From positions 682,001-746,000 of the forward strand of contig NW_019028996.1 of NCBI RefSeq assembly GCF_002105155.1: DNA of 64,000 nucleotides, read 5' to 3'. Made by a program: the position numbers and the translations under genes. The notes below the pieces were generated by a model, which ran no database searches, was not told where the DNA came from, and was given only the letters and a program-made list of their open reading frames with translations. Positions 44,526 through 64,000 of this stretch are shown piece by piece. This stretch comes from Lobosporangium transversale (lineage: Eukaryota). Numbering within the stretch: the stretch's first letter is position 1; each line of letters starts with the position of its first letter.

Positions 44526-45253
44526 GACTACAGTGGTCATCAAAAGTCATTCAATGAATTAGGAATTTCGACATTCTCATTCCTTTCCCAATTTGATCTT
44601 GCTTGTCGCTAATGAAACTTACGTAGCGAGTTCGACCATCGACAATGTCACTCCTACTACAATGTCAATGAGCTCCTGTAGCTAATTGAAAATTTAGATG
44701 AATGCCAATTATTGGCATCTCATTGAATGCCATTTGAAGAAAATCGGGAGCTTTGCTTTATTTGTTTTTTTTTCTGTTCTTCAGTAATGTGTACGACCTC
44801 CTTTCTTGCGATGTAGCTTCTCTACCCTTCGTGGCTGTCACGAACAGCAAGCAATGTCTAGCTCATGAATTGATGAATGACTTTTGTCTGATTCGAATCT
44901 GAAAAAGATCACGTGTGCTTGATTAATTTGTTCCGCTCATTTCCTTCACTCATTCCTCCATGCATAGTTTGCCTGTCAAGCCAAGTCGCGTTGCAAGCGA
45001 AATCACTATAATAATTTTGTGCAACATTGTATTTCGCCCATATTTCTAGAGCATTCCTTGCAACAGGATATTAACTAGTATAAATAGGTCTACTTTTCTA
45101 TCTAGTTCTGTAGCATGGTTCCCCCTGAATAAAGATACCTTTATTGCACCCTTAGATCCCCCTAGAACACTACCTTGACTTTTGCATTGGTAGCAAAGGA
45201 AACCACGACCACCCCCAGAGAACTACAATTACCATTGAATTTCACCCCTCGCC

Positions 45254-46174
45254 ATGGAACACTTGAATAACGCCCTTTCGTCCATCGATCTTCCTCTGAA
45301 CATTCGCGAAGCCATAGCTACTGCTTTTAATCAGGCCCTCTCTACTGCTAAAGTCAACGAAGCCGCTGAGAATGACCTAGCCAGAACCCTCGCCACGGTC
45401 CTAAAGCCACAGAAGCCTACGCCTTACGAAGGAGCTATTAACGCTGTTGCAGCCTTAAACTTTGTCGACAGCCTGGAGGAGTATTACACTATTGTCACAC
45501 TCACGCCATCCAAATGGGTTCGATACGCTGTCCTCAGTCTCAATGGCGAAGCCAAGGCATGGTGGAGAGATTCCGGGTTGAATCTCGATACACCTTGGGC
45601 TGACTTCCGTAAAGCATTCCTCCGTCAGTTCACCCCTCCAGATTCTGCGAATGCAGCTCGCCGAGCGTTGGATAAACTTCGTCAGGGAAGGATGAGTGTG
45701 GCAGAATATACGAGCAAGTTTAGAAGCCACCTACGTCTGGCTACAAATCTCGACAAAGACTCTGCTTTGCAAAAATACATGCTAGGCCTTGAGCCCGAAA
45801 CAAGCAAGCAGGTAAGACTTAGACAGCCAGAGACGTTGGACGATGCCATTGAGCAGGCGACCATTGTCCACAGTATTCTACATCCCATCGATGCCACCCC
45901 TGTATCCGCTACCCCGAACGCCTTATCACCCCATCATGAGAATAATTCTGGCCCTACACCAATGGATCTCGATAACATGAGAATGTTGGTTGCCAACCTG
46001 TACACCTCTCTCCATCAGCAACGACCAAACAGAAACCACTCCAAGCCAAGCTCGCTACCCAAGCTCACAGCAGCTGAACGAGAACGTTGCGTTCGTGAGG
46101 GGCGTTGTTTCAGATGCCGGAACCGAGGTCATAGAGCCTTTGTGCACAAATATAACATCCATGCCCCTTTCTGA
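45254..46174 (+). CDS. gag: Gypsy gag
   Basis: Protein identical to 34991-35911. Confidence 0.92.
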   Translation: MEHLNNALSSIDLPLNIREAIATAFNQALSTAKVNEAAENDLARTLATVLKPQKPTPYEGAINAVAALNFVDSLEEYYTIVTLTPSKWVRYAVLSLNGEAKAWWRDSGLNLDTPWADFRKAFLRQFTPPDSANAARRALDKLRQGRMSVAEYTSKFRSHLRLATNLDKDSALQKYMLGLEPETSKQVRLRQPETLDDAIEQATIVHSILHPIDATPVSATPNALSPHHENNSGPTPMDLDNMRMLVANLYTSLHQQRPNRNHSKPSSLPKLTAAERERCVREGRCFRCRNRGHRAFVHKYNIHAPF

Positions 46175-47165
46175 TCACTCTATTGCTCCCACTGCATCTA
46201 CTTCCTTACATCTACTCTCTAAGTATTCACCTCATCCTGATCCCCATTCCCCTACTCATTCCTCATTGCTAAAAAACAATCCCCTCTCCGACCCTATTTT
46301 CCCCTCCACTGATCCTTTCACTGTTTCCACTTCACTCACTTCCACTCATTCATCTACCCCTAGTTCATCCAATCGCCACTCCCATTGTCGTAACGAAATT
46401 CGCCTTCAATCCTTCAGCCTTACCTATGACAAACATAAAAACTCTCGCCGACTCCTTACTTTCATTGGAGCAGTGAATGGTCGACCTGCGCGCATTCTTG
46501 TAGATGGAGGGGCCGAAGGCAATGTCATAAGTTCCTCTTTCTGCGAGAACACACATGTTCCGCTAATTGAGGGTAGACCCATTCCTGTCATTCTTCCCAA
46601 CGGTACCGAGACAATTGCTCAGCACACAGCCACGTTCACCCTCGCCCGCAACGCGTATCAGGATAAAATCAACGCCATTGTTTATCCTCTATCCAAATAC
46701 GACCTAATTTTGGGTAAACCATGGCTGACGGATATCAACCCTCGCATCAATTGGCGAACAAATGATCTGCATTTTGAATACCAAGGTACCCCGGTCTTGT
46801 GGCCTTGCACTGGCATCGACAGGAAGCCTAGACAGCGATCTTCCGTCATATCTGCTCTTAACTTCCTTACCGTTGCCTCGGAACCTGATGCCTCTGTATT
46901 CCTCGCCCAAGTTCGAGTTCCAGTACCTGTCTCTAGCAGTAGTTCTGAACTACCGGACTCTATCAAGCAAATCGTTCAAGTCGAATTCCCTGATGTCTTT
47001 CCTACAACGCTTCCTGATGGCCTTCCCCCTGACAGAGGTGATAGCATGCGTATAGAGACTGACCCTTATGCTGACCCACCTGTCCGACCTGTCATCAGAT
47101 TGTCGATCGCTGAGCTTGATGAACTGAAGAAGCAGCTAACTGCAAAAGTCAAGGTAGTGTTCTAG
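45990..47165 (+). CDS. Gypsy pol, protease part
   Basis: ILVDGGAEG; one substitution versus copy 1 (YDKH vs YAKH). Confidence 0.85.
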   Translation: MPTCTPLSISNDQTETTPSQARYPSSQQLNENVAFVRGVVSDAGTEVIEPLCTNITSMPLSDHSIAPTASTSLHLLSKYSPHPDPHSPTHSSLLKNNPLSDPIFPSTDPFTVSTSLTSTHSSTPSSSNRHSHCRNEIRLQSFSLTYDKHKNSRRLLTFIGAVNGRPARILVDGGAEGNVISSSFCENTHVPLIEGRPIPVILPNGTETIAQHTATFTLARNAYQDKINAIVYPLSKYDLILGKPWLTDINPRINWRTNDLHFEYQGTPVLWPCTGIDRKPRQRSSVISALNFLTVASEPDASVFLAQVRVPVPVSSSSSELPDSIKQIVQVEFPDVFPTTLPDGLPPDRGDSMRIETDPYADPPVRPVIRLSIAELDELKKQLTAKVKVVF

Positions 47166-47334
47166 GGGGATCTAAGGGTGCAATAAAGGTATCTTTATTC
47201 AGGGGGAACTATGCTACAGAACTAGATAGAAAGTAGACCTATTTATACTAGTTAATATCCTGTTGCAAGGAATGCTCTAGAAATATGGGCGAAATACTAT
47301 GTTGCACATAATTATTAGAGTGATTTCGCTTGCA
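47141..47334 (-). mobile_element. Antisense solo LTR-A inside pol
   Basis: TGCA...TGCA with TSD CTAAC; removal restores KKQLTDLLQK in frame. Confidence 0.95.
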
Positions 47335-50058
47335 CTAACTGATCTTTTACAAAAAGGATTAATCTCACCGAGCACCTCACCATACGGTGCTCCAGTCCTC
47401 TTTGTGAAGAAAAAGGATGGCTCGCTTCGAATGTGTGTTGATTATCGGGGCCTGAACAAGATCACAAAGAAAAACAGGTACCCCTTACCACGGATCGATG
47501 AATTGATCGACAGATTCAGAACAGCTAAATGTTTTACCAAGCTGGATCTACTCTCGGGCTATCATCAAATGCGTGTCCATCCTGATGATAAACACAAGAC
47601 CGCGTTCCGAACTCGCTATGGCCACTACGAGTTTAACGTCGTACCTTTCGGTCTTACAAATGCACCTGCAGCGTTCTCGACTATGATGCGTAACGTACTT
47701 GATCCACTTCTTGATAAATGTGTTGTTGTGTATCTCGATGATATTTTAATTTACTCCGATAACGAGAAAGATCACTTAGAGCACATCCGAAAAGTACTCT
47801 CCCTCTTGCGTCAAGCTGGGCTTTATTGTAAATTATCCAAGTATTCCTTCATGCAGGAAGAGACTGAGTTCCTAGGCCATGTCATATCCAAGGATGGACT
47901 CAAGACGAATGGCGGACTTGTCAAGGCAATAAGGGAATGGCCAGTACCAACAACCCAACGACATGTGATGCAATTCCTTGGTTTGACTAATTTTTACCAT
48001 CAGTACATTTCTCATTACGCTGATATTGCTCTTCCCCTCACACAATTGTTAGGCTGCAATAAGGAATTCCACTGGGGAAAATCTCAACAAGACGCCTTTG
48101 AGACTTTGAAAAGAGCAGTGAGCTCAGCACCAGTTCTTAGGATATTCGATCCTGCCCTCTCTACAGCAGTCGAAACAGACGCTTCAGGCTTTGCAATTGG
48201 TGCTGTCTTGTTCCAGACGGACCAAAATGGTGAATCACGACCAGTAGCTTTTACTTCACGCAAGCTCAACCCAGCGGAACGCAACTATCCTACACACGAA
48301 CAAGAACTGCTGGCTGTGGTGCATGCTCTGAAGACATGGCGATACTACCTTGATGGTTCTCACTTTGTCGTTTATACCGACCATGCCACTCTACAACATT
48401 TTCCTAGCCAGCCGAACTTGACTCGCAGACAAGCAAGATGGATGGAGTTGCTTCAAGAGTATGATTTCGTATTCAAGTATAAACCTGGTAAAGATAACGT
48501 CGTCCCTGATGCTCTTTCACGAAGACCGGACCTCAAGGACTTGGAGGCTACACCTACTACTTTGAACTCCTTGGTTATCAATCTAGACCCTGGCATTCGA
48601 AAACAACTAGCCAGTTGCTACCTACACGATCCAATTCTAGGTCCCCTCGTGCATCAGTATAAGGATGCCTCTACCCCGGATCGTTACTTCGTGGTAGATG
48701 GTCTACTCTGGATCAACGCTGGACAAGGCCCTCGCCTCTGCATACCCAAGGACGACGGACTCCGTTCACAACTCTTGCATGACGCTCACGACGCTCCTAT
48801 ATCAGGCCACTTGGGACTCGATAAAACGTACAGTAGCATGCGACGAACATATTTTTGGCCACGCATGGCGAGGGATATAAAAAAATACATTGCTTCCTGT
48901 GAGCAATGCCAGCGTAACAAGCCTTCACTAAAGCCTCCTGCAGGGCTTTTCCAACCTTTGGCAATTCCAAGCCAACGATGGGATACTGTAACAATGGACT
49001 TCATTGTCAAGCTTCCGAAGACAGCCAGAGGTTTTGACGCGATTACGGTCTTTGTGGACAAACTGTCCAAGCAAGTTCATTTCTGCGCTAGCCGAACTAC
49101 CGACACTGCCTCTGATGTTGCACGACTCTTTTTCGACAATGTTTTTAGACTGCACGGCATGCCTCGGACAATTGTGTCAGATAGAGATTCACGTTTCACC
49201 GGCAAGTTCTGGACAACGTTGATGAAGCTCATGGGCACCAAACTTAACATGTCTACTGCCTTCCTTCCACAATCAGACGGACAAACAGAGCGCGCCAACA
49301 GAACATTAGAAGAAATGCTCCGCTCTTACATATCGTACAAGCAAAACGACTGGGATCTTTTACTGCCTATGATGGAGTTCGCATACAACAACTCTGTCAA
49401 TCCTACGACAGGCTTCTCCCCATTCTTTCTGAACTATGGTCACCATCCACTAGTCCCTGGATCTCTTTTAAAGCCACCTGATACCAATGTTCCGGCTGTC
49501 AGTGATTTTGTTCGAACCCAGTCGATGAATTTGGCGCTAGCTCAGGATGCCATCATCGAAGCGCAGAATAGGCAAAAGGCCCAAGCGGACAAAACTCGCA
49601 GGCCTGCTACGTTTGCTGTGGGTGACATGGTGCTCTTAAGCTCGGAAAACATCTCTGTCGCGGGACATAAAAATAGGCCGTCGCAGAAACTGGAACCTGA
49701 GTACATAGGCCCTTACAAGATCATTTCGAAGGTCAATGAAAATGCCTACAAGCTGGAACTACCGCCTGACATGCATCAACATCCAGTCTTTAATGCCGAT
49801 CTGCTTCGCCCCTATATTGAGTCACCTCGTGAATTCGGCGACCGCTTACCACCACGCCCTGCCCCCGAGCTTGTAGATGGAGAAGAGGAGTATGAAGTCG
49901 ACAAAATCATTGACTTCAAAATGTTTGGCAAAACTCCTAAGTGGCTCGTTCTTTGGAAAGGCTATCCATTAGATGAAGCCACTTGGGAAACAAAATCTTC
50001 GCTCGCAAACGCTAAAGAGGCGCTTGCCGTCTTTGAGGCTTCAAGAAAAACAAGATAA
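47299..50058 (+). CDS. pol: Gypsy pol, RT-RNase H-integrase-chromodomain part
   Basis: Same 919-aa ORF as copy 1; the first ~12 codons come from the inserted LTR. Confidence 0.95.
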
Positions 50059-51295
50059 TAGGTTTCTTCATGACGGGAAGGATGCAAGCGAAATCACTAT
50101 AATAATTTTGTGCAACATAGTATTTCGCCCATATTTGTAGAGCATTCCTTGCAACAGGATATTAACTAGTATAAATAGGTCTACTTTTCTATCTAGTTCT
50201 GTAGCATGGTTCCCCCTGAATAAAGACACCTTTATTACACCCTTAGATCCCCCTAGAACACTACCTTGATTTTTGCACGCGTCTCCTAGTTTTCTAGCTC
50301 CGTGAATAGCTCCAAGGATTCTAGAAGAGCTATAAACCAATAACCAAGACTTATAGTGCCAAGGAACCTTGCAATAAGATTGCACCAGATATCTTCCTCG
50401 GATCCTGTGTATTAAGTTAACTCAACACTTGAAGTTCCGCATATGGTAAAAGTCCTTAGGAAATATTTGAGTAAGCTTTATTTAGAGTTCTTGAAGCGCG
50501 TCTCCGCTTCAGTCAAACAAGTATAAATATGATAGATTTGTAACATAGTAAACCTCAGTCTGCAATAAAACTATTCTTGAATCTCCTAAGCTCATTTTTG
50601 TTCCTAAATCACTTACCTTCTCTTGCAATTGTCCTGTCAGTCCTTGACGGTAATTGCACGCGAGGTTGATACGGGTATATTTAGATCCATTCTGGCAGTT
50701 CAAGAATACATCAGATCGAGCAGTGCTCCTATTCGAACCATTCGAATCGAATTCGAATAGATATCAGGATTCGAATGCTATTCGAACCGCTCGAATGATT
50801 CGAGCCATTCGAACCGTTCGAATGATTCGAACCATTCGAACCATTCGACATTCGAACCATTCGACATTCGAACCGTTCGAATGATTCGAACCATTCGAAC
50901 CATTCGACATTCGAACCGTTCGAATGATTCGAACCATTCGACCCTCGAATCATTCGAACCATTCGAACCATTCGACACTCGAACCATTCGAACCATTCGA
51001 TACACGATAGGAAATGGTAATTCTAAACTTGTGTTTGTAGTTTTCATTATGTTTCATCTCCTGCCTTATTTCTCTTTCCTTCTTTTTCCTCTTTTGCCTT
51101 TCTTCCTGTGGTTCCCCGAAATTTAATCAAATAAAAGACTACCCCTTTTAACTTATTCATGCATGATTTGGTTTGAACTTGTTGCTCTTTTTTTTTTTTT
51201 TTTCCTAATTTCCTAATTCCCACGCCAATTAGTAGTGTTATCTTAATCTTTTTCTTTCCGTTTTTTTTTTTTTCTTTCATTTACTGATTATTTTC

Positions 51296-51375
51296 TTCCA
51301 TTTACTCATTCTTCTCTTCCATTTACTCATTCTTCTCTTCCATTTACTCATTCTTCTCTTCCATTTACTCATTCT
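51296..51375. repeat. 21-bp minisatellite in the hAT 5' region
   Basis: ttccatttactcattcttctc about 4 times. Confidence 0.8.
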
Positions 51376-51756
51376 TTTCTTTCATTTAATCCTTATTTTT
51401 ATTCATCTACTCCTTATTTTCTTTTATTTACTCATTATATTCTTACATTTACTCATATTTTTACTCTTCATCTCATTCTATTTATTCTTATTCTGTTCTC
51501 TCTTCACTTTTCTTATTCTTATTATTTTCTTTTTCTCATTCTTGTCTTTTTATTTTCTCACTCTTTTCTTGTCTTTTCTTTTTCTCACTCTTTCTTGTCT
51601 TTTCTTTTTCCTTTTCATTTCATTTCTTTTATTATTTTATTTATTTTGTTTCTCTCTCGTCTTTCTTGTCTTTCGTTACAGTTCCATCCCTCTCATCTGC
51701 TTTGTTTTTCGTGTCTTTTATTTTTCCTATTTCCCTTGCAATTACTGTTTGAGAAA

Positions 51757-54431
51757 ATGACAAAGAGCAGCCGACGCCGTATTGCAACTTCTGAAAGCGA
51801 GGAGGAAGAGCATGAAGAAGAGGTAAATATTAACTACTTTGACAACATACTGTGACTGTTAAGAAAGATAGTTAACCTTAAAAACTTTTTAACGGTTCTA
51901 TGACACTTTGATGGATTTAAGGTTAATGATGTGAGTAATATGTCTATGTCGACCACTTTCGACATCACTGACGGTAGCATGGGTACGGAAAGCATGGGAA
52001 GTGTCAGTATCAGTAGCAAGAAAGGCACCCGAGTTTGGGGGTGGGCCATTAAAAACAAATGGGCTGAACGCGTTGAAACAAAAAAAGGCGCAGTCATACG
52101 CTGTCGTTTCCCTGGCTGCAAGATGGAATATACGTCAAGTACGATGACAACCAGTGGAATCAATTCACATTTGGCTAATAAGCACCATATTAGAAAAGAT
52201 AGCCACGTGAATGATGGTAGCCTCTCCCGGCAAGGCCCATTGGATGTAATGTTTTCTTCTTCTCCAAGGGTATTTGACCCTACAAGATTCGATGATTTGC
52301 TTGTGCGTTTTGTCGTTACGACGAAGGAGCCATTCGCTGTTGTAAAGAGTGCAGCTTTTCAAGAGCTTCTAAATCATGCAACAATGGCCGCAATGGCTCA
52401 AGTCAAGCTCCCCTCAGATGATACCATGGCAAACAAGGTAGCTCTCCTTTTTCTTCTACTCCACTTTTTTTGGCTTTATTTTTTTATTATTTATCTATTA
52501 TTATCATCTTTATTTATTTCTACGTTATTACTTTCCCTCCACTGGAGCCTAACAAAGTTTACTAATTTGAAATAGACGAGACGAAAATATGATGATATGG
52601 AACAAGAAGCGATTGCCTTATTTGAAGGCATCAATAAGATTTCATTGACTGCTGATAGCTGGACAAGTCCTTTTCAGGACGACTTCTTAGGAGTCACGGC
52701 TCATTGGATCGACAAGGATTGGCGCCAAAAAGAGCTAGTGATAGGGTTTGAGCCTCTACTCGGAATGCACACAGGCGAGATGCAAACGTGTTATACAATA
52801 CTGACTCAAACCTTTGAGGAGGGCTCAACTATCACGCGCACCCCAGGCGCCAAGACGCCAAGCCCAAGTGCCAAGACACCAAGCCCCAACCCTATCAATT
52901 ATCAGTATAAATAGTCCACTACGTTATAGCCAAATAAAGTATCCTTTGACCTTCGATTCCACCTAAGATCACCTTTGATTGTTACTATTTACACGAGAAC
53001 CTCGCCGAAGCTCTCGTCAGTGTTATTAAGCGCTTTAAAATTGGCGATAAGCTCCAAAGCATCACTACCGATAACGCATCAAACATGACCAAAATGGTGC
53101 GAGAAGTTGTGAATCATCCCGAAGCAGTTGAATGGTAAACAATTGTACTACTGAACTAACTTTGGCTTCTATAATAGTTACATGTCTCTAACTTTGGTAT
53201 TTAAAAAACTACGATTAGGCCACTCATAGATAACCTGTACCATATACCATGCCTTGGTCATATTATAAACCTGGCTGTACAAGCAATGCTAGGTCCTAAC
53301 GGCTTAAATGATCCAGCCCTTGAGAATGACAACGGCTACTCTGACGATAGTGGGGACGAAGACACAATTGGGTCGATGGAAGTAACGCTAAGCACATTGC
53401 AGAAGCTGAGGAAAGGCATCATGAAGATCAGGCAAGTATTTCGATATGATTATGATAGCAAATAACATGGGTGACAGGAAACTCAGCTAACCATCGGTTA
53501 CATTTACCACTTGCTGTGTAGATCATCACCGCAAAGGATGTATCAGTTTGGCCGTGTTTGTGATATTGTGAAGAGCCCAAAGCTTGAGTTGATAAGGGAC
53601 AACAGAACACGATGGAACTCTACTTCCACAATGGTTGAAAGAGCAATAACTCTAAAAGATGCTTACCAGTCTATGTGTAAGAACGAAGCTATCCTAGCGC
53701 CATACATTCTGAAGGATGAGGAATGGCTATATCTTCAAAAGCTCCAGTTGTTGCTTAGTCGATTCGTCGCTATCACTAACATCGTGTCTTCCAGCGTGGG
53801 TTATCCGACGATTAACCGAGCAATGTCCGTATACAACTTAATGATCGATCATTTAGAAGAGTTTATTGAAGAAGAAAAAGACCCCTCACTTAACCAGGCG
53901 GCAAGTCAGGGATTACAAAAGCTTCTGAACTATTATTCTAAAACAGATACCACCTCGGTTTATGCAGTAGCCACTGCCATGGATCCAAGAATGCGATTTA
54001 ACTGGTGGGAGGTAAATGACTGGGGTGTATACATCGAAAGCAGCAAAAATATGGTGAAAGAGGTATGGGAAAAAGAATACAAAGGAAAAGAAGGCCCCGC
54101 CCAAGTGCCTGCTGACCAAGAGTATGAAATGAAGCTCTATGGAATCAGTACGCAAGCTGGAGAGCTTGAAGAGTATGTCCGTGAAGGAAGTTCGCTAGTT
54201 GCCAGCAAGCAGGAGCCTCCAGAGTTGGTGCACTGGCGCTCGCAGAATGAACGCTGGCCCAATTTAGCAAATATGGCACGAGACTACCTCGCTATACCTG
54301 TGACATCGACCCCAGCTGAACGTTGTTTCTCCCAGGCTAAGTTCATTATGTCCGCTGAGAGAAATAGTCTTCTCCCTACAACGATCCAACGATTAGTAGT
54401 TTTGGATTCTTGGTTGAAAGAGATGTCTTGA
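51757..54431 (+). pseudogene. hAT transposase (spliced), interrupted by a solo LTR
   Basis: BED finger VWGW..CRFPGC..HLANKH, LTADSWTS, ITTDNASNM, CLGH, TRWNST, ARDYLAIPVTSTPAERCFS. Confidence 0.9.
52781..52993 (+). mobile_element. 213-bp solo LTR of a third family
   Basis: TGCAAA...TTTACA, TATAAATA, AATAAA, TSD CGAGA; removal restores HTGENLAE. Confidence 0.9.
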
Positions 54432-54441
54432 TTGAGACATA

Positions 54442-56069
54442 CACTATCATGCAAAACTGATTCAATAATTCATTCCCATGTGCATTTCTTTTTTTCATTC
54501 CTAGAAACCGTATATGCATACACCACTCATACTTTGGTTTAATAAAGCTCCCGTCTTCTTCTACGTCCTAGTGATGCGTTGTGACATTAGCTTGTCTCAT
54601 TTGAATAGCTAATGACTTTTTTGTTCATGCAGGTCATTGAATCAGTTTCACATGTGGTCTAAAATGTTGCCCATGGCAACTTTTGGACGTCATTTAATGC
54701 CAGTAAAAAAAGGACTTTTCTCTCTTTCCTTTATGAACACTTGCTTAACTCTTAACTATACCTTCACAGAATATGAGACCCACTCCACAAAGGAAAGTCA
54801 ACGAAGCCAGGAGGTTAATGATGGGAGGCATGTCTACTAGAGAAACTGCTGCTAGTGTTGGTATATCAATAGCGACGGCCACCAGGATCTATGCACATAA
54901 TAAGGAGTACATGCCAGTCAATAAAGGCGGTCGACCAAGGAAAGTACCTAGAGGTATCATGCAGTATCTTAAGGTGAACATGAAACGAGGTACACTCAAG
55001 TCTGCAGTTGAGGCCACCGCCAGAGCCAACCAGCTCATACCAGCGGCTGTTTCTGAGACCACCGTTAGACGACGGCTCAAGGAGTTAGGATTGACAGCAA
55101 AGAGGCGTGTACATAAGCCAGCTTTACGTCGACGACATATTAAAGCTCGTTTGCATTTTATCAAAAAGTATAAGGAATGGACTCTGGAAGATTGGAAAAA
55201 GGTTATTTGGTCAGATGAATCGAAAATAAACCGAATCTGCTCTGATGGCGTGCAGTGGATCTGGGGCGACAATCCGGGACGCCTCACTCGCAGGTCGGTG
55301 CAAGGCACTGTCAAGTTTGGGGGTGGTAATGTTAAAGTGTGGTCATGCTTCTCATGGCACGGACCTGGATACATTGCAAAGATTGACAATAATATGGACG
55401 CACAACTTTACATCAAACTACTGCAGGAGGATCTACAGATGTCGCTTGGTGACTGGGGCCTAACTAAAAGCGATATCGTCTTTCAGCACGACAATGACTC
55501 GAAGCACACGGCGAAGATTGTTAGGAAGTATTTGGAGTCAGTACATCTGACAGAAGAGGAAGGTACACTTCTAGAGTGGCCAGCACAATCCCCTGACCTC
55601 AACCCTATTGAACACATGTGGGCAGAATTGGATAGGCGGCTCTCTAGGTATCCGGAGCGAGCTAAGAGCTGTGATGAACTATGGGAGCGAATATCGGTTG
55701 AATGGTACAGGATCCCAGTGGACTTCTGCCGCAAACTCATCATAGATATCCATAAGAGACTCCAAGCTGTCAGTGATGCCCATGGTTGGAATACTATCTA
55801 TTGATGTAAGGTTATGGCTCACAAAAGAATAAAGATCTTTGGCCACCGAATGGGCACATGTGAAACTGATTCAATGACCTGAATGAACAAAAAAGCCATT
55901 AGCTATTCAAATGAGACAAGCTAATGTCACAACGCATCACTATGACGTAGAAGAAGACGGGAGCTTTATTAAACCAAAGTATGAGTGGTGTATGCATATA
56001 CGGTTTCTAGGAATGAAAAAAAGAAATGCACATGGGAATGAATTATTGAATCAGTTTTGCATGATAGTG
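54442..56069 (+). mobile_element. Intact Tc1-like transposon with 215-bp TIRs
   Basis: TA TSD; TIRs 54442-54656 and 55855-56069. Confidence 0.95.
54773..55804 (+). CDS. Tc1 DDE transposase, 343 aa, uninterrupted
   Basis: GRPRK, WSDESK, FQHDNDSKH, WPAQSPDLNPIEHMW. Confidence 0.95.
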   Translation: MRPTPQRKVNEARRLMMGGMSTRETAASVGISIATATRIYAHNKEYMPVNKGGRPRKVPRGIMQYLKVNMKRGTLKSAVEATARANQLIPAAVSETTVRRRLKELGLTAKRRVHKPALRRRHIKARLHFIKKYKEWTLEDWKKVIWSDESKINRICSDGVQWIWGDNPGRLTRRSVQGTVKFGGGNVKVWSCFSWHGPGYIAKIDNNMDAQLYIKLLQEDLQMSLGDWGLTKSDIVFQHDNDSKHTAKIVRKYLESVHLTEEEGTLLEWPAQSPDLNPIEHMWAELDRRLSRYPERAKSCDELWERISVEWYRIPVDFCRKLIIDIHKRLQAVSDAHGWNTIY

Positions 56070-56073
56070 TATA

Positions 56074-56420
56074 CAGTGCTCCTATTCGAACCTTTCGAAT
56101 CGAATTTCACTGATATCGAATTCGATTCGAATGAGGTAAGCTCAAATTCGATTCGAATTCGATTAGATAACAAAATTCGAATGCTATTCGAATGGTTCGA
56201 ATGATTCGAGCGAACTATTGGCACAATAGTAAATGATAATTTTAAACTTTTTTTTTTATTTTTTTTTGATTGGGTGTAAAGTACAAGGACCATACTTTCG
56301 CTACGCGTAACCAGAGGCCCTATTCGAACCATTCGAACCATTCGAATCGAACCAGGATATGGCTTATTTGAATCGATTCGAATTTATCACGATTCGAATT
56401 CGAATCGAATAGGAGCACTG
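56074..56420. mobile_element. 347-bp non-autonomous hAT (MITE) nested in the parent hAT
   Basis: Same TIRs as the parent; TSD GACATATA, left copy split by the Tc1 insertion. Confidence 0.9.
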
Positions 56421-56721
56421 GACATATATAGTTTTCTAAATAAGAGTAAAAGTATCTCTCAAAACTAGCAAATCAAATAAAACTTTTTACAATACAACTC
56501 TGAACCAGGGTTATGAACTATATCACCCCTACCACTTCACAATTCAAACCACCACGCTCCTATTCGAATCATTCGAACCATTCGACACTCGAACCATTCG
56601 AACCATTCGAACCATTCGACACTCGAACTATTCGAACCATTCGAACCATTGGAATCGAACCAGGATATGGCTTATTCGAAGCTATTCGAATTCGAACCGT
56701 TCGATTCGAATAGGAGCACTG

Positions 56722-58608
56722 AGTAGGTGTAGCCTCCGAGTCCTTGAGGTCCGGTCTTCGTGAAAGAGCATCAGGGACGACGTTATCTTTACCAGGTTTA
56801 TACTTGAATACGAAATCATACTCTTGAAGCAACTCCATCCATCTTGCTTGTCTGCGAGTCAAGTTCGGCTGGCTAGGAAAATGTTGTAGAGTGGCATGGT
56901 CGGTATAAACGACAAAGTGAGAACCATCAAGGTAGTATCGCCATGTCTTCAGAGCATGCACCACAGCCAGCAGTTCTTGTTCGTGTGTAGGATAGTTGCG
57001 TTCCGCTGGGTTGAGCTTGCGTGAAGTAAAAGCTACTGGTCGTGATTCACCATTTTGGTCCGTCTGGAACAAGACAGCACCAATTGCAAAGCCTGAAGCG
57101 TCTGTTTCGACTGCTGTAGAGAGGGCAGGATCGAATATCCTAAGAACTGGTGCTGAGCTCACTGCTCTTTTCAAAGTCTCAAAGGCGTCTTGTTGAGATT
57201 TTCCCCAGTGGAATTCCTTATTGCAGCCTAACAATTGTGTGAGGGGAAGAGCAATATCAGCGTAATGAGAAATGTACTGATGGTAAAAATTAGTCAAACC
57301 AAGGAATTGCATCACATGTCGTTGGGTTGTTGGTACTGGCCATTCCCTTATTGCCTTGACAAGTCCGCCATTCGTCTTGAGTCCATCCTTGGATATGACA
57401 TGGCCTAGGAACTCAGTCTCTTCCTGCATGAAGGAATACTTGGATAATTTACAATAAAGCCCAGCTTGACGCAAGAGGGAGAGTACTTTTCGGATGTGCT
57501 CTAAGTGATCTTTCTCGTTATCGGAGTAAATTAAAATATCATCGAGATACACAACAACACATTTATCAAGAAGTGGATCAAGTACGTTACGCATCATAGT
57601 CGAGAACGCTGCAGGTGCATTTGTAAGACCGAAAGGTACGACGTTAAACTCGTAGTGGCCATAGCGAGTTCGGAACGCGGTCTTGTGTTTATCATCAGGA
57701 TGGACACGCATTTGATGATAGCCCGAGAGTAGATCCAGCTTGGTAAAACATTTAGCTGTTCTGAATCTGTCGATCAATTCATCGATCCGTGGTAAGGGGT
57801 ACCTGTTTTTCTTTGTGATCTTGTTCAGGCCCCGATAATCAACACACATTCGAAGCGAGCCATCCTTTTTCTTCACAAAGAGGACTGGAGCACCGTATGG
57901 TGAGGTGCTCGGTGAGATTAATCCTTTTTGTAAAAGATCAGTTAGTGCAAGCGAAATCACTCTAATAATTATGTGCAACATAGTATTTCGCCCATATTTC
58001 TAGAGCATTCCTTGCAACAGGATATTAACTAGTATAAATAGGTCTACTTTCTATCTAGTTCTGTAGCATAGTTCCCCTGAATAAAGATACCTTTATTGCA
58101 CCCTTAGATCCCCCTAGAACACTACCTTGACTTTTGCAGTTAGCTGCTTCTTCAGTTCATCAAGCTCAGCGATCGACAATCTGATGACAGGTCGGACAGG
58201 TGGGTCAGCATAAGGGTCAGTCTCTATACGCATGCTATCACCTCTGTCAGGGGGAAGGCCATCAGGAAGCGTTGTAGGAAAGACATCAGGGAATTCGACT
58301 TGAACGATTTGCTTGATAGAGTCCGGTAGTTCAGAACTACTGCTAGAGACAGGTACTGGAACTCGAACTTGGGCGAGGAATACAGAGGCATCAGGTTCCG
58401 AGGCAACGGTAAGGAAGTTAAGAGCAGATATGACGGAAGATCGCTGTCTAGGCTTCCTGTCGATGCCAGTGCAAGGCCACAAGACCGGGGTACCTTGGTA
58501 TTCAAAATGCAGATCATTTGTTCGCCAATTGATGCGAGGGTTGATATCCGTCAGCCATGGTTTACCCAAAATTAGGTCGTATTTGGATAGAGGATAAACA
58601 ATGGCGTT
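56722..58608 (-). mobile_element. Gypsy copy 3, internal fragment (end of protease, solo LTR 57946-58138, RT-RNase H)
   Basis: Near-identical to 32609-34494; bounded by a hAT TIR on the left and a PLE pseudo-LTR on the right. Confidence 0.93.
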
Positions 58609-58663
58609 TGATAAGTAGGATGGGTTTTTTTGTGAAAAAGTGGAAAAAGTGACTGAGAGTGAG

Positions 58664-58722
58664 AAAGAAGACTGCGGGACAAGTGCTTGTTTCGATCTTT
58701 TCTCTTCAGCCTTGTCTTCTTT
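58664..58722 (-). ncRNA. Type I hammerhead ribozyme, copy 1
   Basis: aaagaagac-aa-gg CUGAAGA ga-aaaga-uc GAAA caag-ca-cuug UC cc-gca-gucuucuuu. Confidence 0.88.
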
Positions 58723-59060
58723 TTATACTTTTTTCACGCCTCTCGGACTCTCGGGAGAGAGGGTGAACGGTAACCCAAAAAGGAATCATTATCCAAATCG
58801 GGTCTCATCCGGAAACTCCTAGATTGTTTCAGATTGAGTCAGTTATGACGTAAGATCTAAAATTAATCTAAGTATAGATTACAAATAATTTATCCGAACG
58901 GTTAGACTAAAAAAGGAAGGTCTAAGTCCGAAAAAATCCTAGGATATATGTATCATTTCCGTGGTACGCGTCGACCTAGCAAACAGGTTTATTTGGAGCC
59001 AGCAAACCAGTTATTTGTGGCTTTCTACTCCTTAACTAGGGTCACGTGACAAAATTTATT

Positions 59061-59197
59061 TTTAGGTATCTATTTTTAGGGTCTATTTTTAGGGTTTTTT
59101 AGGGTTTTTTAGGGTTTTTTAGGGTTTTTAGGGTTTTTTAGGGTTTTTTAGGGTTTTTAGGGTTTTTTAGGGTTTTTTAGGGTTTTTTAGGGTTTTT
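59061..59197 (+). repeat. Telomere-like tract ending in about 10 regular T5-6AGGG units
   Basis: Mostly TTTTTTAGGG from 59095. Confidence 0.93.
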
Positions 59198-59251
59198 GAT
59201 AAGTAGGATGGGTTTTTTTGTGAAAAAGTGGAAAAAGTGACTGAGAGTGAG

Positions 59252-59310
59252 AAAGAAGACTGCGGGACAAGTGCTTGTTTCGATCTTTTCTCTTCAGCCT
59301 TGTCTTCTTT
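59252..59310 (-). ncRNA. Type I hammerhead ribozyme, copy 2
   Basis: Identical to copy 1. Confidence 0.88.
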
Positions 59311-59648
59311 TTATACTTTTTTCACGCCTCTCGGACTCTCGGGAGAGAGGGTGAACGGTAACCCAAAAAGGAATCATTATCCAAATCGGGTCTCATCCGG
59401 AAACTCCTAGATTGTTTCAGATTGAGTCAGTTATGACGTAAGATCTAAAATTAATCTAAGTATAGATTACAAATAATTTATCCGAACGGTTAGACTAAAA
59501 AAGGAAGGTCTAAGTCCGAAAAAATCCTAGGATATATGTATCATTTCCGTGGTACGCGTCGACCTAGCAAACAGGTTTATTTGGAGCCAGCAAACCAGTT
59601 ATTTGTGGCTTTCTACTCCTTAACTAGGGTCACGTGACAAAATTTATT

Positions 59649-59749
59649 TTTAGGTATCTATTTTTAGGGTCTATTTTTAGGGTTCTATTTTAGGGTTTTT
59701 TTAGGGTTATTTTTAGGGTTTTCTTTTAGGGTTATTTTTAGGGTTAGGG
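59649..59749 (+). repeat. Element-encoded degenerate telomere-like tract
   Basis: Irregular TnAGGG units ending TTAGGG; same sequence at 63821-63921. Confidence 0.9.
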
Positions 59750-59905
59750 TCAAGGAGGGTCAGCTCTGGCCTATACCATGAACCTGAGAAAACTCCTAAA
59801 AAATCTAAAGAAAACTTACTAAGTCTAAAAAACCGGACCTATTTTGTCGGGGATGAGGGCTAGTTATAATATAAGATACAGAAGAGATCTCATTGAACTA
59901 GTCAT

Positions 59906-61411
59906 CTACAATCGACTCCTTATTGGGGCGGATTGGAGAATCTTTTTATTATAGGTGTTCAACTGGTTGCGCAGGTTGGAGCCTTTATAAATTATCCATG
60001 TGGTTTGTGTATTCTCATAACGGGCAGGTTTGAGGGTATGGATATCTCGTAGAATCATACGTCCAAACTGTTCAAGTTTGTCACGTCCAGGGATGTTATG
60101 GAGGAACATTTTTTTGATAATAGTATCATTTTTCTGAGACGAGGGTGCCGGGTACAAAAGAGTATTCCGTTCATCGTATGAGTGTAATCTGAGTTGATTG
60201 TTGATTACATGTGAGGGGTAGTTTCTATTAAGAAGATGTTGGGCAAATTGTGCTGTGGCATGGGTGTGGAAAGAAGACTGACTAGAGTTTCTAATTAGTC
60301 TTTGGTTTTCACCATTAATCCAGTTAAAAACATATTTCCTAGGGTAGTATGTATCTGGATCAGTGTATAGGTGTTTATTAACGGGTTTGTCGAAAGGAGC
60401 AATAGTAAATCGGGTTGGACTAGTATTGTTATCGACAGAAATAAGAAGGTCGAGCATAACTACTTGTTGACCATTGTTACCATGGTCGATAGTGATATTA
60501 AGACTTTGACAAGAGGCATAAATCTGATGAAGTTTAATGTCAATGTATGGTTTCAAAAGATTGAATGTCTCTTTAGACCAGGGAAGGTTATCATGTTTGG
60601 TAGTTCTGATTATGGCAAAGCCATCATCTATATACCGGAACAGGGTGATGTCAAAGAAATCGAGTTTATAGAAAAACATTGGGGAATTAGTGTCAACTGG
60701 AAGGTTGTCAGGAAAAACTCCATGGAATTGTTGTTGTTTCTCTACGCAGCATGCAAAGAGGCGGGCTATGGTGGGTGCCATGGGAGTTCCCATAGCTAAG
60801 CCTTTGACTTGTCTGTAATTATTTGTAAGGTCAGAGACAAGGCAGTTCTTATTAACCCATTCTGCGAGTTTCAGACATATTTGGATTTCATAATTGTAAG
60901 AATGATTGCAGAAGTAGTGTAGTATGGTTTTTCTGGCTTCTTCAAAGTCGATGTTACCATACATGTTGATGACGTCGAAAGCTGCTAATGAGTAATGGCA
61001 GTAAGGATCAAAGTCAAAATTTTCTAGATAACGTATTAGTGTGGGGGTGTCGGGAAGATCTCTAGGGAACTCATTAAGTAGAGGGCGCAGGTTTCTATCG
61101 ACAAACTGACTAATAGTGTGTGTTATCCAAGGGAAAGAGGGGACTATAGGTCTAGCACCGGGTGGTGACTTATGTATTTTAGGTAAAAGATACATAACTG
61201 GGACAGTATAGAAGTTAGGATTGGTTCTAACATTATCTCTTATTAGTTTAGCTTCTGAGAGTAATTTATTTTTAATTCTAAGAGGACTAAGATTGACTAT
61301 AGAAAAGAGTGAGTTTATCATATTGTCAATGGAGAACGAAGGGCACGGGACATAACAGGAAGTATCTGTTAGAAGTTTCGTAGTCTGGGATGTATACCAG
61401 TCTAGGTCCAT
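59906..61411 (-). CDS. Penelope-like reverse transcriptase with no GIY-YIG endonuclease; true N-terminus lies further upstream
   Basis: YLLPKIHK..RPIV, FDVINMYGNI, QVKGLAMGTPMAP, FRYIDDGF, MLDLLI, KPVNKHLY; ORF ends after the thumb with no GIY..YIG. Confidence 0.93.
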   Translation of the reverse strand: MDLDWYTSQTTKLLTDTSCYVPCPSFSIDNMINSLFSIVNLSPLRIKNKLLSEAKLIRDNVRTNPNFYTVPVMYLLPKIHKSPPGARPIVPSFPWITHTISQFVDRNLRPLLNEFPRDLPDTPTLIRYLENFDFDPYCHYSLAAFDVINMYGNIDFEEARKTILHYFCNHSYNYEIQICLKLAEWVNKNCLVSDLTNNYRQVKGLAMGTPMAPTIARLFACCVEKQQQFHGVFPDNLPVDTNSPMFFYKLDFFDITLFRYIDDGFAIIRTTKHDNLPWSKETFNLLKPYIDIKLHQIYASCQSLNITIDHGNNGQQVVMLDLLISVDNNTSPTRFTIAPFDKPVNKHLYTDPDTYYPRKYVFNWINGENQRLIRNSSQSSFHTHATAQFAQHLLNRNYPSHVINNQLRLHSYDERNTLLYPAPSSQKNDTIIKKMFLHNIPGRDKLEQFGRMILRDIHTLKPARYENTQTTWIIYKGSNLRNQLNTYNKKILQSAPIRSRL

Positions 61412-61498
61412 AATAGTGAGTCCTAAGTTTTTTATCAGCAGGGAATGATAATTTATTCGAGGTCATTAGATTTCTGTAGGATTTTTTTTTTTTTTTTA

Positions 61499-62752
61499 TT
61501 AATTATGGTTTGTAGCATCGAACAGAACATTAGCTAGATTAATATCTAGTTTATTAATATTCCTACAAAGTTGGTTACGCAATTTCTTTAGTTCTGAGCT
61601 CAGAACAACATAGTTGGGAGGTTTATGTATATTGAAATTGACTCCTTTATTTAAGACTTGAAGAATATCATGGGGGATGGATTGTACGGAAGACATATTG
61701 TTGACTCCGACAAAATCATGTAAATCTACTTTTTTTGTTTCTGAGGGGATGGGGCTTTTTTCACGGGGCCTTTTCCTTTCTTTACATGGGTGGTTTTCTT
61801 GGAGGACGTTGGGGGACCACCTTTCTTCTTGTCTTTCTTCGCCATCGATGGGCCTTTTGGTCCTTTGTATTTGTTGGTGTCGTTCTGTCGACGTGATGGC
61901 TTGGGTTTGCTTGGCTTCTTCTTCGAGGCGTCCTTCTTGGTATTCTAGAGGGAAAGTAGAGTTGATCTTAGAATAGATTATATTTAATCGTGGAGCAAAC
62001 CAAAGGGAAACAATTATCTTGAATACCTTTAATCCAAGATTTAATTGCTGGAATTCTGCAGTGGCTCGTAATACTTGCACTTGAGCAGAAAACTCAATAG
62101 CAGTGGCACGAATCAGCTTGTAGGTGAAGTCTTTACCCAGATTATTCAGATGAGAATTGTTTTCAACGGCCACAAGGGCAGATGAAAGGGTGTCCGCTAG
62201 CTGTCTGGGGAGGGTGTCATTGAGTTCACTTTGGCATTGTTGGATGATATTTGCTTTGTCAGCTTTAATGGCCGATACTAACAAATTGTCAAACGAAGTG
62301 CTAAGTGTAGCAAGGACGTCCTTTGACAGGGTAACACGGTTATTGTTGACAGTAAGATGTCCCCAATAGCCTAGTTGTGTCTTAGCGTTGACTTCACGCA
62401 GAATCTTCTGAGCCATTCGGATTTTATCCAAAAGAATGGCCGCCTTATTGACAAATTTGCTTAAGATGTCTGCGGCAACCCTGTCAGTCATCGTTCCCTT
62501 TTTGAAAGAGGGAAGATAGGAACCAGGGTTCAGAGAGGTGTCACTATTCCCAATATGATTATTGAGACGAGCGACGAGCTGCTCGAGGGTGGGAAGGTCT
62601 GCCGGTGCAGTCCCTCCTCCCATCTCGGCATCGGCATCGATCATAGCCTGACCTGGAACTTGTTGACCTGGGGTGACTTGGAAGACATCCTGGTTTCCAC
62701 GGGCAGAGCTTGACGATGAGGAGGGGCCGGGGGCAGCGTGAGTATTGACCAT
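61499..62752 (-). CDS. PLE ORF1 (helical protein; probable intron 61945-62026 gives a basic tail with stop at 61726-61728); the unspliced frame runs into the RT N-terminal region
   Basis: ATG 62752 just after the pseudo-LTR; unspliced C-terminus VNNMSS..LQVLNKGVNF resembles the pre-RT motif of PLEs. Confidence 0.7.
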   Translation of the reverse strand: MVNTHAAPGPSSSSSSARGNQDVFQVTPGQQVPGQAMIDADAEMGGGTAPADLPTLEQLVARLNNHIGNSDTSLNPGSYLPSFKKGTMTDRVAADILSKFVNKAAILLDKIRMAQKILREVNAKTQLGYWGHLTVNNNRVTLSKDVLATLSTSFDNLLVSAIKADKANIIQQCQSELNDTLPRQLADTLSSALVAVENNSHLNNLGKDFTYKLIRATAIEFSAQVQVLRATAEFQQLNLGLKVFKIIVSLWFAPRLNIIYSKINSTFPLEYQEGRLEEEAKQTQAITSTERHQQIQRTKRPIDGEERQEERWSPNVLQENHPCKERKRPREKSPIPSETKKVDLHDFVGVNNMSSVQSIPHDILQVLNKGVNFNIHKPPNYVVLSSELKKLRNQLCRNINKLDINLANVLFDATNHN

Positions 62753-62830
62753 CTTGAGAGGAACTTGAGGGTTTTTGATAAGTAGGATGGGTTTTTTTGT
62801 GAAAAAGTGGAAAAAGTGACTGAGAGTGAG

Positions 62831-62889
62831 AAAGAAGACTGCGGGACAAGTGCTTGTTTCGATCTTTTCTCTTCAGCCTTGTCTTCTTT
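62831..62889 (-). ncRNA. Type I hammerhead ribozyme, copy 3 (5' pseudo-LTR of the full element)
   Basis: Identical to copy 1; predicted cleavage after GUC, between 62845 and 62844. Confidence 0.88.
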
Positions 62890-63227
62890 TTATACTTTTT
62901 TCACGCCTCTCGGACTCTCGGGAGAGAGGGTGAACGGTAACCCAAAAAGGAATCATTATCCAAATCGGGTCTCATCCGGAAACTCCTAGATTGTTTCAGA
63001 TTGAGTCAGTTATGACGTAAGATCTAAAATTAATCTAAGTATAGATTACAAATAATTTATCCGAACGGTTAGACTAAAAAAGGAAGGTCTAAGTCCGAAA
63101 AAATCCTAGGATATATGTATCATTTCCGTGGTACGCGTCGACCTAGCAAACAGGTTTATTTGGAGCCAGCAAACCAGTTATTTGTGGCTTTCTACTCCTT
63201 AACTAGGGTCACGTGACAAAATTTATT

Positions 63228-63368
63228 TTTAGGTATCTATTTTTAGGGTCTATTTTTAGGGTTCTATTTTAGGGTTTTTTTTAGGGTTATTTTTTAGGGT
63301 TTTTTTTAGGGTTATTTTTAGGGTATAGGGTTTTTTTATTTTTAGGGTTATTTTTAGGGTTATTTTAG
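63228..63368 (+). repeat. Degenerate telomere-like tract between pseudo-LTRs 3 and 4
   Basis: Starts like the encoded tract, then diverges into irregular TTATTTTTAGGG-type units. Confidence 0.9.
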
Positions 63369-63423
63369 GATAAGTAGGATGGGTTTTTTTTGTGAAAAAG
63401 TGGAAAAAGTGACTGAGAGTGAG

Positions 63424-63482
63424 AAAGAAGACTGCGGGACAAGTGCTTGTTTCGATCTTTTCTCTTCAGCCTTGTCTTCTTT
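63424..63482 (-). ncRNA. Type I hammerhead ribozyme, copy 4
   Basis: Identical to copy 1. Confidence 0.88.
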
Positions 63483-63820
63483 TTATACTTTTTTCACGCC
63501 TCTCGGACTCTCGGGAGAGAGGGTGAACGGTAACCCAAAAAGGAATCATTATCCAAATCGGGTCTCATCCGGAAACTCCTAGATTGTTTCAGATTGAGTC
63601 AGTTATGACGTAAGATCTAAAATTAATCTAAGTATAGATTACAAATAATTTATCCGAACGGTTAGACTAAAAAAGGAAGGTCTAAGTCCGAAAAAATCCT
63701 AGGATATATGTATCATTTCCGTGGTACGCGTCGACCTAGCAAACAGGTTTATTTGGAGCCAGCAAACCAGTTATTTGTGGCTTTCTACTCCTTAACTAGG
63801 GTCACGTGACAAAATTTATT

Positions 63821-63921
63821 TTTAGGTATCTATTTTTAGGGTCTATTTTTAGGGTTCTATTTTAGGGTTTTTTTAGGGTTATTTTTAGGGTTTTCTTTTA
63901 GGGTTATTTTTAGGGTTAGGG
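63821..63921 (+). repeat. Element-encoded degenerate telomere-like tract of the next copy
   Basis: Same as 59649-59749 and followed by the same tcaaggagggtcagctctgg 3' UTR. Confidence 0.9.
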
Positions 63922-64000
63922 TCAAGGAGGGTCAGCTCTGGCCTATACCATGAACCTGAGAAAACTCCTAAAAAATCTAAAGAAAACTTACTAAGTCTAA

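What the first reader, a model, noticed from the sequence alone, without database searches (positions are those of the whole stretch)
58590..58625. Broken Gypsy element capped directly by the PLE with no telomere seed
Seen: Gypsy protease sequence (..aacaatggcgtt) switches to pseudo-LTR (tttgataagtagg) with only about 2 nt of overlap and no TnAGGG repeat between them. Inferred: a chromosome break in Gypsy copy 3 was healed by the retroelement RT priming on a non-telomeric end.
Basis: partly seen in the sequence, partly recalled or inferred. Interest (0 to 1): 0.7.

Follow-up and report, generated by a model that had tools for sequence, protein, structure and literature searches.

The report
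Retroelement caps a broken fungal chromosome
Near a fungal chromosome end, a fragment of one transposon is joined directly, with a two-base overlap and no telomere repeats, to the likely priming site of a telomere-seeking retroelement, which likely copied itself onto a broken end and then gave telomerase a place to start.

Summary
The junction is as described. Gypsy copy 3 ends inside its protease at 58608, the pseudo-LTR of an endonuclease-less Penelope-like element (PLE) starts at 58607, the exact overlap is TT, and no T(n)AGGG unit lies between them or to the left. The join falls inside a single 9-nt telomere-complement seed, 68 nt after a hammerhead cleavage site, that is conserved in 2 of 2 close relatives, although the Gypsy end had longer matches elsewhere in the element. 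Contigs from 3 of 4 runs of the same species show a second, different non-telomeric flank joined at the same seed. The first PLE copy stops after about 490 nt in its own telomere-like tract and is followed by ten T5-6AG3 repeats. Best reading (0.62): the PLE reverse transcriptase primed on a non-telomeric broken end, and its cDNA then seeded telomerase. Against: Gypsy and PLE also share TTGAT with one T offset, as a later deletion would leave; no read of the source strain was available; the region has DNA-level duplications. Copy 3 is a 1.9-kb fragment fused on its left to a hAT end, not a whole element. Known kind of element, apparently unreported target use.

The parts
58607..58608 (.). The junction: TT shared by the Gypsy end and the PLE start
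56722..58608 (-). Gypsy (Ty3, chromodomain type) copy 3: internal fragment, protease C-terminal part to RNase H; 2 differences from copies 1 and 2 in 1888 columns
57946..58138 (-). Solo LTR nested inside the Gypsy pol with a 5-bp target duplication; present in all three window copies, skipped (198 nt) in contigs of 4 of 4 laid runs
50721..56721 (+). hAT transposon; its right inverted repeat abuts Gypsy copy 3; 8-bp flanks of the two ends differ (no target duplication)
54439..56072 (+). Tc1/mariner element nested in the hAT
56074..56420 (.). hAT-type MITE nested in the hAT; its 8-bp target duplication is split by the Tc1
44992..50278 (+). Gypsy copy 2, full length with a 5-bp target duplication; likely donor (46671-48558) of copy 3, inverted
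30887..36329 (-). Gypsy copy 1 plus 156 bp of copy 2's flank: a DNA-level inverted duplicate
58607..59096 (-). First PLE copy: pLTR only, 5'-truncated inside the element's own telomere-like tract
58665..58721 (-). Predicted type I hammerhead ribozyme in the first pLTR (core at 58709, predicted cleavage base at 58678); repeated in all four pLTRs
59095..59192 (+). Ten uniform T5-6AGGG repeats (8 T6, 2 T5), likely added by telomerase
59193..62765 (-). Full PLE unit: 3' pLTR, variant telomere tract, 3' UTR, RT (ORF2) and ORF1
59906..61462 (-). PLE reverse transcriptase frame (518 aa stop to stop), no GIY-YIG domain; its N-terminal part is out of frame at two A-runs in this assembly
61726..62752 (-). 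ORF1, 314 aa after a predicted 82-nt GT-AG intron (62026-61945) whose position is shared with L001 and L002
62768..62776 (-). Conserved single telomere-complement seed (A5CCCT on the sense strand), 68 nt after the hammerhead cut and 15 nt before the ORF1 ATG
62772..63368 (-). 5' pLTR and an expanded tract of element-type variant repeats
63369..64000 (-). Next PLE copy, joined to the variant tract with a 1-nt overlap; runs off the window

Best explanation
A 1.9-kb Gypsy fragment is joined, with a 2-nt overlap and no telomere repeat, to the conserved seed of an endonuclease-less Penelope-like element, likely because the element's reverse transcriptase used a broken, non-telomeric chromosome end as primer. 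Steps: (1) shown: the right end of a hAT transposon is fused to an inverted internal copy of the nearby Gypsy with no target duplication; inferred: a one-ended or sister-chromatid hAT transposition made an inverted duplication that broke 1.9 kb further on. (2) Shown: the new end reads ..GTT and meets the PLE inside its A5CCCU seed; inferred: the PLE RNP paired the last two T's with the seed's A-run and started cDNA there, internally in a read-through RNA. (3) Shown: the first copy stops after about 490 nt inside the element's own telomere-like tract and ten uniform T5-6AG3 repeats follow; inferred: telomerase extended that tract. (4) Shown: more PLE copies follow head to tail, 5' ends outward; inferred: later rounds of ordinary telomere priming.
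For: Join position: inside a 9-nt seed that is invariant in window, L001 and L002 while the spacer around it diverges; 9 of 3579 nt of the unit. The Gypsy end offers longer exact matches elsewhere in the unit (7 nt at 62391; GTTGAT at four other places) that were not used. Recurrence: contigs of 57-58 nt in X1, X3 and X4 (3 of 4 runs laid, three studies; not among the 3 records laid for X2) join a different, AT-rich non-telomeric flank to the same seed with one mismatch, at 0.17-0.22 of the pLTR contig's depth; that flank is not in the window; 58 nt is the unitig length that the window's own 2-nt-overlap junction gives at k=31. Short footholds occur at telomeric joins too: 1 nt at 63369. In the laid runs the pLTR-to-3'UTR contig (1087-1093 nt in X1-X3) and the ORF1 contig (1178-1765 nt in X1-X3) are unbranched, so joins are not scattered over those parts. 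Polarity is that of cDNA added to a 3' end facing the telomere. A PLE RT starts internally on its RNA without homology to the primer in vitro (PMC11167929, parts 1-2 of 4 read; an EN-plus element).
Against: No read or contig spans 58608: in 4 of 4 runs laid the Gypsy contig runs on as intact Gypsy, and all four differ from the window at five listed sites, so none is the source strain (114 pieces not shown). The intact Gypsy continues GAT after TT, matching the PLE (8 of 414 TT sites do so), which a deletion between two TTGAT copies explains and priming does not; 2 of 7 TTGAT sites in the unit examined are seeds. The region shows DNA-level duplication (copy 1 carries 156 bp of copy 2's flank), so DNA template switching is active here. 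The second junction is one event, possibly from one strain; its mismatch letter and its 2-nt overlap are inferred from contig ends, not read. The chromosome tip is outside the window and no whole genome is held. In Ascochyta lentis 12 of 13 Coprina copies have telomeric repeats on the proximal side (PMC13159263, section 17).
Confidence: 0.62

Rival explanations
1. The break was first healed by telomerase a little further along the Gypsy, the PLE attached to that telomere in the usual way, and a later deletion between the TTGAT in the Gypsy and the TTGAT at the pLTR start removed the whole tract.
For: Explains the GAT match (8 of 414 by chance). Interstitial telomere tracts break and rearrange often in MoTeR arrays (PMC7367193, passages). 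Proximal telomere repeats are the rule for Coprina (12 of 13).
Against: A clean deletion would leave T2, the assembly has T3; indels were seen in 0 of 282 two-base runs and 0 of 54 three-base runs between copies 3 and 1. It needs a second such precise deletion for the flank seen in X1, X3, X4.
Confidence: 0.15
2. The broken Gypsy end invaded or was end-joined to an existing PLE array of another chromosome end through DNA microhomology (microhomology-mediated break-induced replication or end joining); no RNA step.
For: DNA-level duplications flank the site. BIR acts on MoTeR arrays. The second junction has 7 of 8 in-register matches to the element across the seed (inferred), enough for DNA annealing.
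Against: Longer matches elsewhere in the unit were ignored; two joins in the same 9 nt of 3579 are unlikely if any position could serve.
Confidence: 0.13
3. The Gypsy fragment is itself cDNA: the PLE RT extended the cut hAT end on Gypsy RNA for 1.9 kb and then jumped to its own RNA at the seed.
For: Gypsy piece and PLE have the same polarity (both sense on the minus strand); one private substitution 16 nt from the hAT end. PLEs can carry host RNAs in trans (PMC8557442, passage).
Against: Zero overlap at the hAT-Gypsy join fits transposase strand transfer; polarity agrees by chance half the time; the transcript would have to read through the nested LTR (inference).
Confidence: 0.05
4. Assembly artefact: a chimeric long read or a mis-join of two repeat families.
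For: No spanning evidence was obtainable. The pLTR start is a natural branch point of assembly graphs. The PLE frame has two A-run frameshifts that may be consensus errors.
Against: Both ends of copy 3 fall on biologically defined points (hAT end, conserved seed); the Gypsy side is no graph branch point in 4 of 4 runs; a like junction exists in independent data.
Confidence: 0.05

Closest known systems
Coprina and Athena/Terminon endonuclease-less Penelope-like elements (PMC8557442 and PMC6431247, passages; PMC13159263, section 17)
   Same: RT without endonuclease, pLTRs in partial tandems, hammerhead followed by reverse-complement telomere sequence, 5' ends toward the telomere, telomere repeats between copies.
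   Different: Described as pairing with G-rich telomeric overhangs; here the innermost copy sits on non-telomeric DNA with a 2-nt overlap, the seed is one 9-nt unit, and a longer variant tract lies inside the pLTR about 450 nt in. The RT groups with unnamed relatives apart from the named Dikarya hits.
Drosophila HeT-A/TART healing of broken chromosome ends (PMC4700185, passage citing Biessmann 1990)
   Same: A telomere-specific retroelement attaches to a broken non-telomeric end.
   Different: Non-LTR elements in a host without telomerase; here a PLE in a host that appears to keep telomerase-type repeats.
Poseidon PAc of Anolis (PMC11167929, parts 1-2 of 4)
   Same: Fixed internal start of reverse transcription downstream of the hammerhead, without homology to the primer.
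   Different: PAc has a GIY-YIG endonuclease and makes its own nick; its start lies inside the ORF, here 15-24 nt before the ORF1 ATG.
MoTeR elements and de novo telomeres of Magnaporthe (PMC7367193, PMC8381367, passages)
   Same: Retroelement arrays with interstitial repeats at fungal ends; new telomeres built on 1-4 nt seeds.
   Different: The short seeds reported there are for telomere addition, and MoTeRs are described as inserting into telomere repeats.
Endonuclease-independent LINE-1 insertion at DNA breaks and deprotected telomeres (titles in the reference list of PMC4700185; passage in PMC5537684)
   Same: An RT uses a pre-existing DNA end as primer.
   Different: Non-LTR element in repair-deficient mammalian cells.

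Membership tests
Penelope-like element | PLE-type RT (DKN motif, core motifs, thumb) | tested here: met
   240 homologs at E<=0.001 of 3420 candidates, many with PF00078, one listed with GIY-YIG; catalytic DD and AMGT motifs align. The DKN motif is split by an A-run frameshift in this assembly. Pfam itself gave 0 hits for P0001 at E<=1.
Penelope-like element | Pseudo-LTRs from partial tandem copies | tested here: met
   Four pLTR cores of 448-449 nt, 0-1 differences.
Penelope-like element | Hammerhead ribozyme in the pLTR | tested here: inconclusive
   Core and 16 of 16 stem pairs present in 3 of 3 sequences but invariant, so no covariation; the minimum-energy fold is a different structure; Rfam gave no hammerhead hit among 11 matches at E<=5; cleavage not testable.
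Penelope-like element | Retained spliceosomal intron | tested here: inconclusive
   GT-AG interval of 82, 94 and 100 nt at the same ORF1 position in window, L001, L002; no RNA evidence.
EN-minus telomeric PLE (Athena/Coprina grade) | No GIY-YIG endonuclease | tested here: met
   ORF ends soon after the thumb; no GIY-YIG hit, whereas P0111 has one.
EN-minus telomeric PLE (Athena/Coprina grade) | Reverse-complement telomere sequence just downstream of the hammerhead | tested here: met
   A5-6CCCT 68, 68 and 76 nt after the cut in 3 of 3; an AACCCT unit at a like place in 4 more distant loci, none within 170 nt in 7 other core-like hits.
EN-minus telomeric PLE (Athena/Coprina grade) | Terminal location, 5' end outward, telomere repeats between copies | tested here: inconclusive
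   Polarity and interspersed repeats met; the chromosome tip is outside the window and no genome is held.
EN-minus telomeric PLE (Athena/Coprina grade) | Proximal attachment to a telomeric G-rich tract | tested here: not met
   Not met at 58608 nor for the flank in X1, X3, X4; met at 59193, 63369 and for two loose ends in X2 and X4.
Coprina clade proper | RT falls inside the Coprina clade | tested here: inconclusive
   FastTree of 52 of the 121 proteins: the window RT lies in a starred group of unnamed proteins apart from the Armillaria, Pyricularia, Pochonia, Podosphaera and Mucor hits; no labelled Coprina or Athena reference was available.
hAT one-ended / alternative transposition | Exact element end joined to a nearby target, no matching 8-bp duplication at the partner end | tested here: met
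   Right end at 56721 abuts Gypsy with 0 overlap; neither left end (50721, 56074) has the same 8-bp flank. Ectopic exchange between two hAT copies gives the same pattern and was not testable.

The most novel reading that the evidence does not exclude
This PLE family is a general break-healing system in Mortierellaceae: its RT captures any free 3' end with one or two paired bases at a fixed seed, and its pLTR is built so that even a 0.5-kb truncated cDNA delivers a telomere tract for telomerase; at the boldest, the RT also copied the Gypsy piece from RNA before jumping to its own template.
Probability: 0.3. Interest if true: 0.75.

Novelty: new variant of a known kind. Interest (0 to 1): 0.5.

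Why it matters
EN-minus PLEs are the closest living relatives of telomerase RT and are described as needing a G-rich telomeric overhang to prime. If this family primes on ordinary broken ends with 1-2 paired bases and then supplies telomerase with a seed, the pairing is a preference, not a need, and PLEs can fix terminal deletions and rearrangements in a telomerase-positive host, as HeT-A does in flies. The defined seed, the spectrum of joins and a culturable soil-fungus host make primer choice of a telomerase-like RT directly testable in vitro.

Tried and rejected
Gypsy insertion into the PLE or its tract (the explanation offered for the one exception in A. lentis): rejected, the join is inside the protease, not at an LTR end. 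Independent retrotransposition of copy 3: rejected, it lacks both terminal LTRs. Whole-genome check of other ends: no genome held. Run search: 8 rows, 7 holders, 4 studies, all contigs; no RNA holder listed. X7 gave no cover on the pLTR at 95% likeness; a hole proves nothing. Exact pLTR-start pattern in metagenome contigs: 0 hits. 44 related metagenome loci: those compared (14 of 44, plus L001 and L002) look like collapsed tandem units and gave no flank junctions. Rfam: no hammerhead hit. PDB: 0 hits. Full 121-protein tree did not finish. Earlier findings of the scan: nothing in 3 look-ups. Papers: Gladyshev and Arkhipova 2007 and Arkhipova et al. 2017 are not held, so I saw neither and they may describe such joins. 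Searches that showed no report of a seedless EN-minus PLE join in their listings; Mortierell+telomer+Penelope gave 1 paper, on Gigaspora (listing only); a search for the T6AG3 repeat gave 7 unrelated papers, so T6AG3 as the host telomere is my inference. No supplements were opened.

Full report
Setting. The window is eukaryotic. A host gene at 1439-3463 has 34 best hits in or among Mortierellaceae entries at about 44-57% identity (one short 80% segment aside), out of 38 hits at E<=1e-30, so the host is likely a Mortierellaceae fungus. The right third is a transposon-rich subtelomere-like region: two full Ty3/Gypsy copies, a hAT with nested Tc1 and MITE, a third Gypsy piece, then an array of a Penelope-like element with T(n)AGGG tracts on the plus strand. 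No whole genome is held and the array runs off the window, so the tip itself is not seen.

The observation. Copy 3 equals the intact copies through 58608; the PLE's own sequence is matched from 58607. The exact overlap is TT. The break is inside the protease domain. No T>=4AGGG unit lies to the left in the window. One refinement: after its TT the intact Gypsy continues GAT, as the PLE does after T5, so there is a TTGAT match offset by one T. GAT follows 8 of 414 TT sites in the Gypsy. The extra T is unlikely to be a consensus error judged by short runs (0 of 282 two-base and 0 of 54 three-base runs differ between copies 3 and 1; 1 of 7 five-base runs does), but longer runs in the PLE do show likely errors or decay (two A-run frameshifts).

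The element. ORF2 is a PLE-type RT with 240 homologs and no GIY-YIG domain. ORF1 has a predicted intron at the same place in the two closest relatives, L001 and L002. Each pLTR holds a predicted type I hammerhead whose core and 16 stem pairs are invariant in 3 of 3 sequences; invariance gives no covariation support, and Rfam and the minimum-energy fold do not recover it. Downstream of the predicted cut (68, 68, 76 nt) and 15-16 nt before the ORF1 ATG, all three keep one A5-6CCCT unit while the spacer diverges. This is the hammerhead-plus-reverse-complement-repeat arrangement described for EN-minus PLEs (PMC8557442 and PMC6431247, passages). A quick tree of 52 of 121 proteins leaves the clade name open.

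Where copies start. All three pLTR joins in the window that are not the element's own continuation lie in or at the edge of that seed: 58607 on Gypsy (2-nt overlap), 59193 on uniform repeats (9 nt match to the element's own sequence, 11 counting two more after a mismatch), 63369 on variant repeats (1 nt). The seed is 9 of 3579 nt of the unit. The Gypsy end has longer exact matches elsewhere in the unit, 7 nt at 62391 and GTTGAT at four places, which were not used; against this, 2 of the 7 TTGAT sites in the stretch examined are seeds.

Other strains. Seven runs in four studies hold the stretch, all as contigs. In X1, X2, X3 and X7 the Gypsy differs from the window at five shared listed sites, lacks the nested LTR, and runs through 58608 as intact Gypsy; no listed piece bridges the junction (114 pieces not shown). 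These are therefore not the source strain, and the junction is unverified by reads. Laying X1-X4 on the element's own pLTR-ORF1 boundary (3, 3, 3 and 9 records laid, 17 of 18 shown) gave five loose ends. Two are telomeric or variant-telomeric (X2, X4). Three (X1, X3, X4) are one and the same 22-nt AT-rich, non-telomeric flank on a 57-58-nt contig that matches 62766-62801 with one other letter, at 0.20, 0.22 and 0.17 of the pLTR contig's depth. None is Gypsy. The flank is not in the window. From the contig ends I infer that the mismatch is at 62771 and that an intact copy of the flank shares the sequence through 62773, i.e. a 2-nt exact overlap and 7 of 8 matches in register; the window's own junction gives a 58-nt unitig by the same geometry. 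This is one further event, perhaps from one strain, but independent of the window's.

What follows the join. The first copy is identical to the element from 58611 to 59096, inside the element's own variant telomere tract, and is followed by ten uniform repeats (8 T6AG3, 2 T5AG3) before the next copy. I read these as telomerase products on a seed supplied by the cDNA; T6AG3 as the host repeat is inferred from this tract and the X2 loose end, and was not found in print.

Where the break came from. Copy 3 is an internal piece, 2 differences in 1888 columns from copies 1 and 2, inverted relative to copy 2 and fused at 56722 to the exact right end of the hAT with no overlap and no matching 8-bp flank at either left end. 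Copy 2 has its own target duplication; copy 1 carries 156 bp of copy 2's flank, so it is a DNA-level duplicate. From general knowledge of Ac/Ds-type elements (recalled, no call), joining one element end to a nearby site on the sister chromatid yields an inverted duplication that breaks; this fits but is inferred, and exchange between two hAT copies would look alike.

Weighing. Priming at the seed explains the position, the recurrence and the short overlaps, and has an in vitro parallel in a PLE RT that starts internally without primer homology (PMC11167929, parts 1-2 of 4). It leaves the GAT match to chance. A later TTGAT deletion explains GAT but not the third T or the second junction. DNA-level template switching fits the unstable region but not the choice of site. 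Artefact is least likely because both ends of copy 3 fall on defined biological points. I give 0.62, 0.15, 0.13, 0.05 (RT copying of Gypsy RNA) and 0.05.

Compared with what is known. The element works like Coprina and Athena, which are described as attaching to G-rich telomeric overhangs; in A. lentis 12 of 13 copies have proximal telomere repeats (PMC13159263, passages and section 17). Healing of broken ends by a telomeric retroelement is known for HeT-A (PMC4700185, passage), and 1-4 nt seeds are known for new telomeres in Magnaporthe (PMC7367193, passages; PMC8381367, passages). Fungal PLE hammerheads are described in PMC4209133 (passages). My searches listed no seedless EN-minus PLE join, but the two primary papers could not be read. 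Verdict: a real-looking, probably RT-made junction; a new variant of a known kind; interest 0.5.

Noticed in passing
window 33831-34024, 47141-47334, 57946-58138: A solo LTR of the same family sits inside pol of all three Gypsy copies with a 5-bp target duplication; contigs of 4 of 4 laid runs skip these 198 nt. A self-insertion that was then duplicated at the DNA level.
   Followed up: partly
window 30887-36329 vs 44836-50278: 5.4-kb inverted duplication, 5 differences, 4 of them in the outer part of the 3' LTR, and 156 bp of shared flank: looks like ectopic copying that ended in a pre-existing LTR.
   Followed up: partly
window 63226-63368: The tract before the last PLE copy repeats element-type variant units more often than the element does, unlike the uniform tract at 59095; slippage, or repeat addition by the PLE RT itself.
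   Followed up: no
window 61440-61500: Two A-run frameshifts split the RT's N-terminal part and DKN motif; L001 and L002 read through here. Consensus error or a decayed copy.
   Followed up: partly
window 54430-56420: Nesting order is readable: MITE into hAT, then Tc1 into the MITE's left target duplication.
   Followed up: yes
window 11466-12905: Frame with an NDC10_II (PF16787) match, possibly a Crypton-type element (the family link is recalled).
   Followed up: no
L003, L006, L012, L013: More distant relatives keep an AACCCT unit about 90 nt after the hammerhead core and shortly before an ATG, the same layout with a TTAGGG-type seed.
   Followed up: partly
run X2, laid on window 62768-62807: A low-depth contig (97.7 against 3846.8) joins uniform T6AG3 repeats to the pLTR with one other letter, suggesting a start a base further in.
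   Followed up: no
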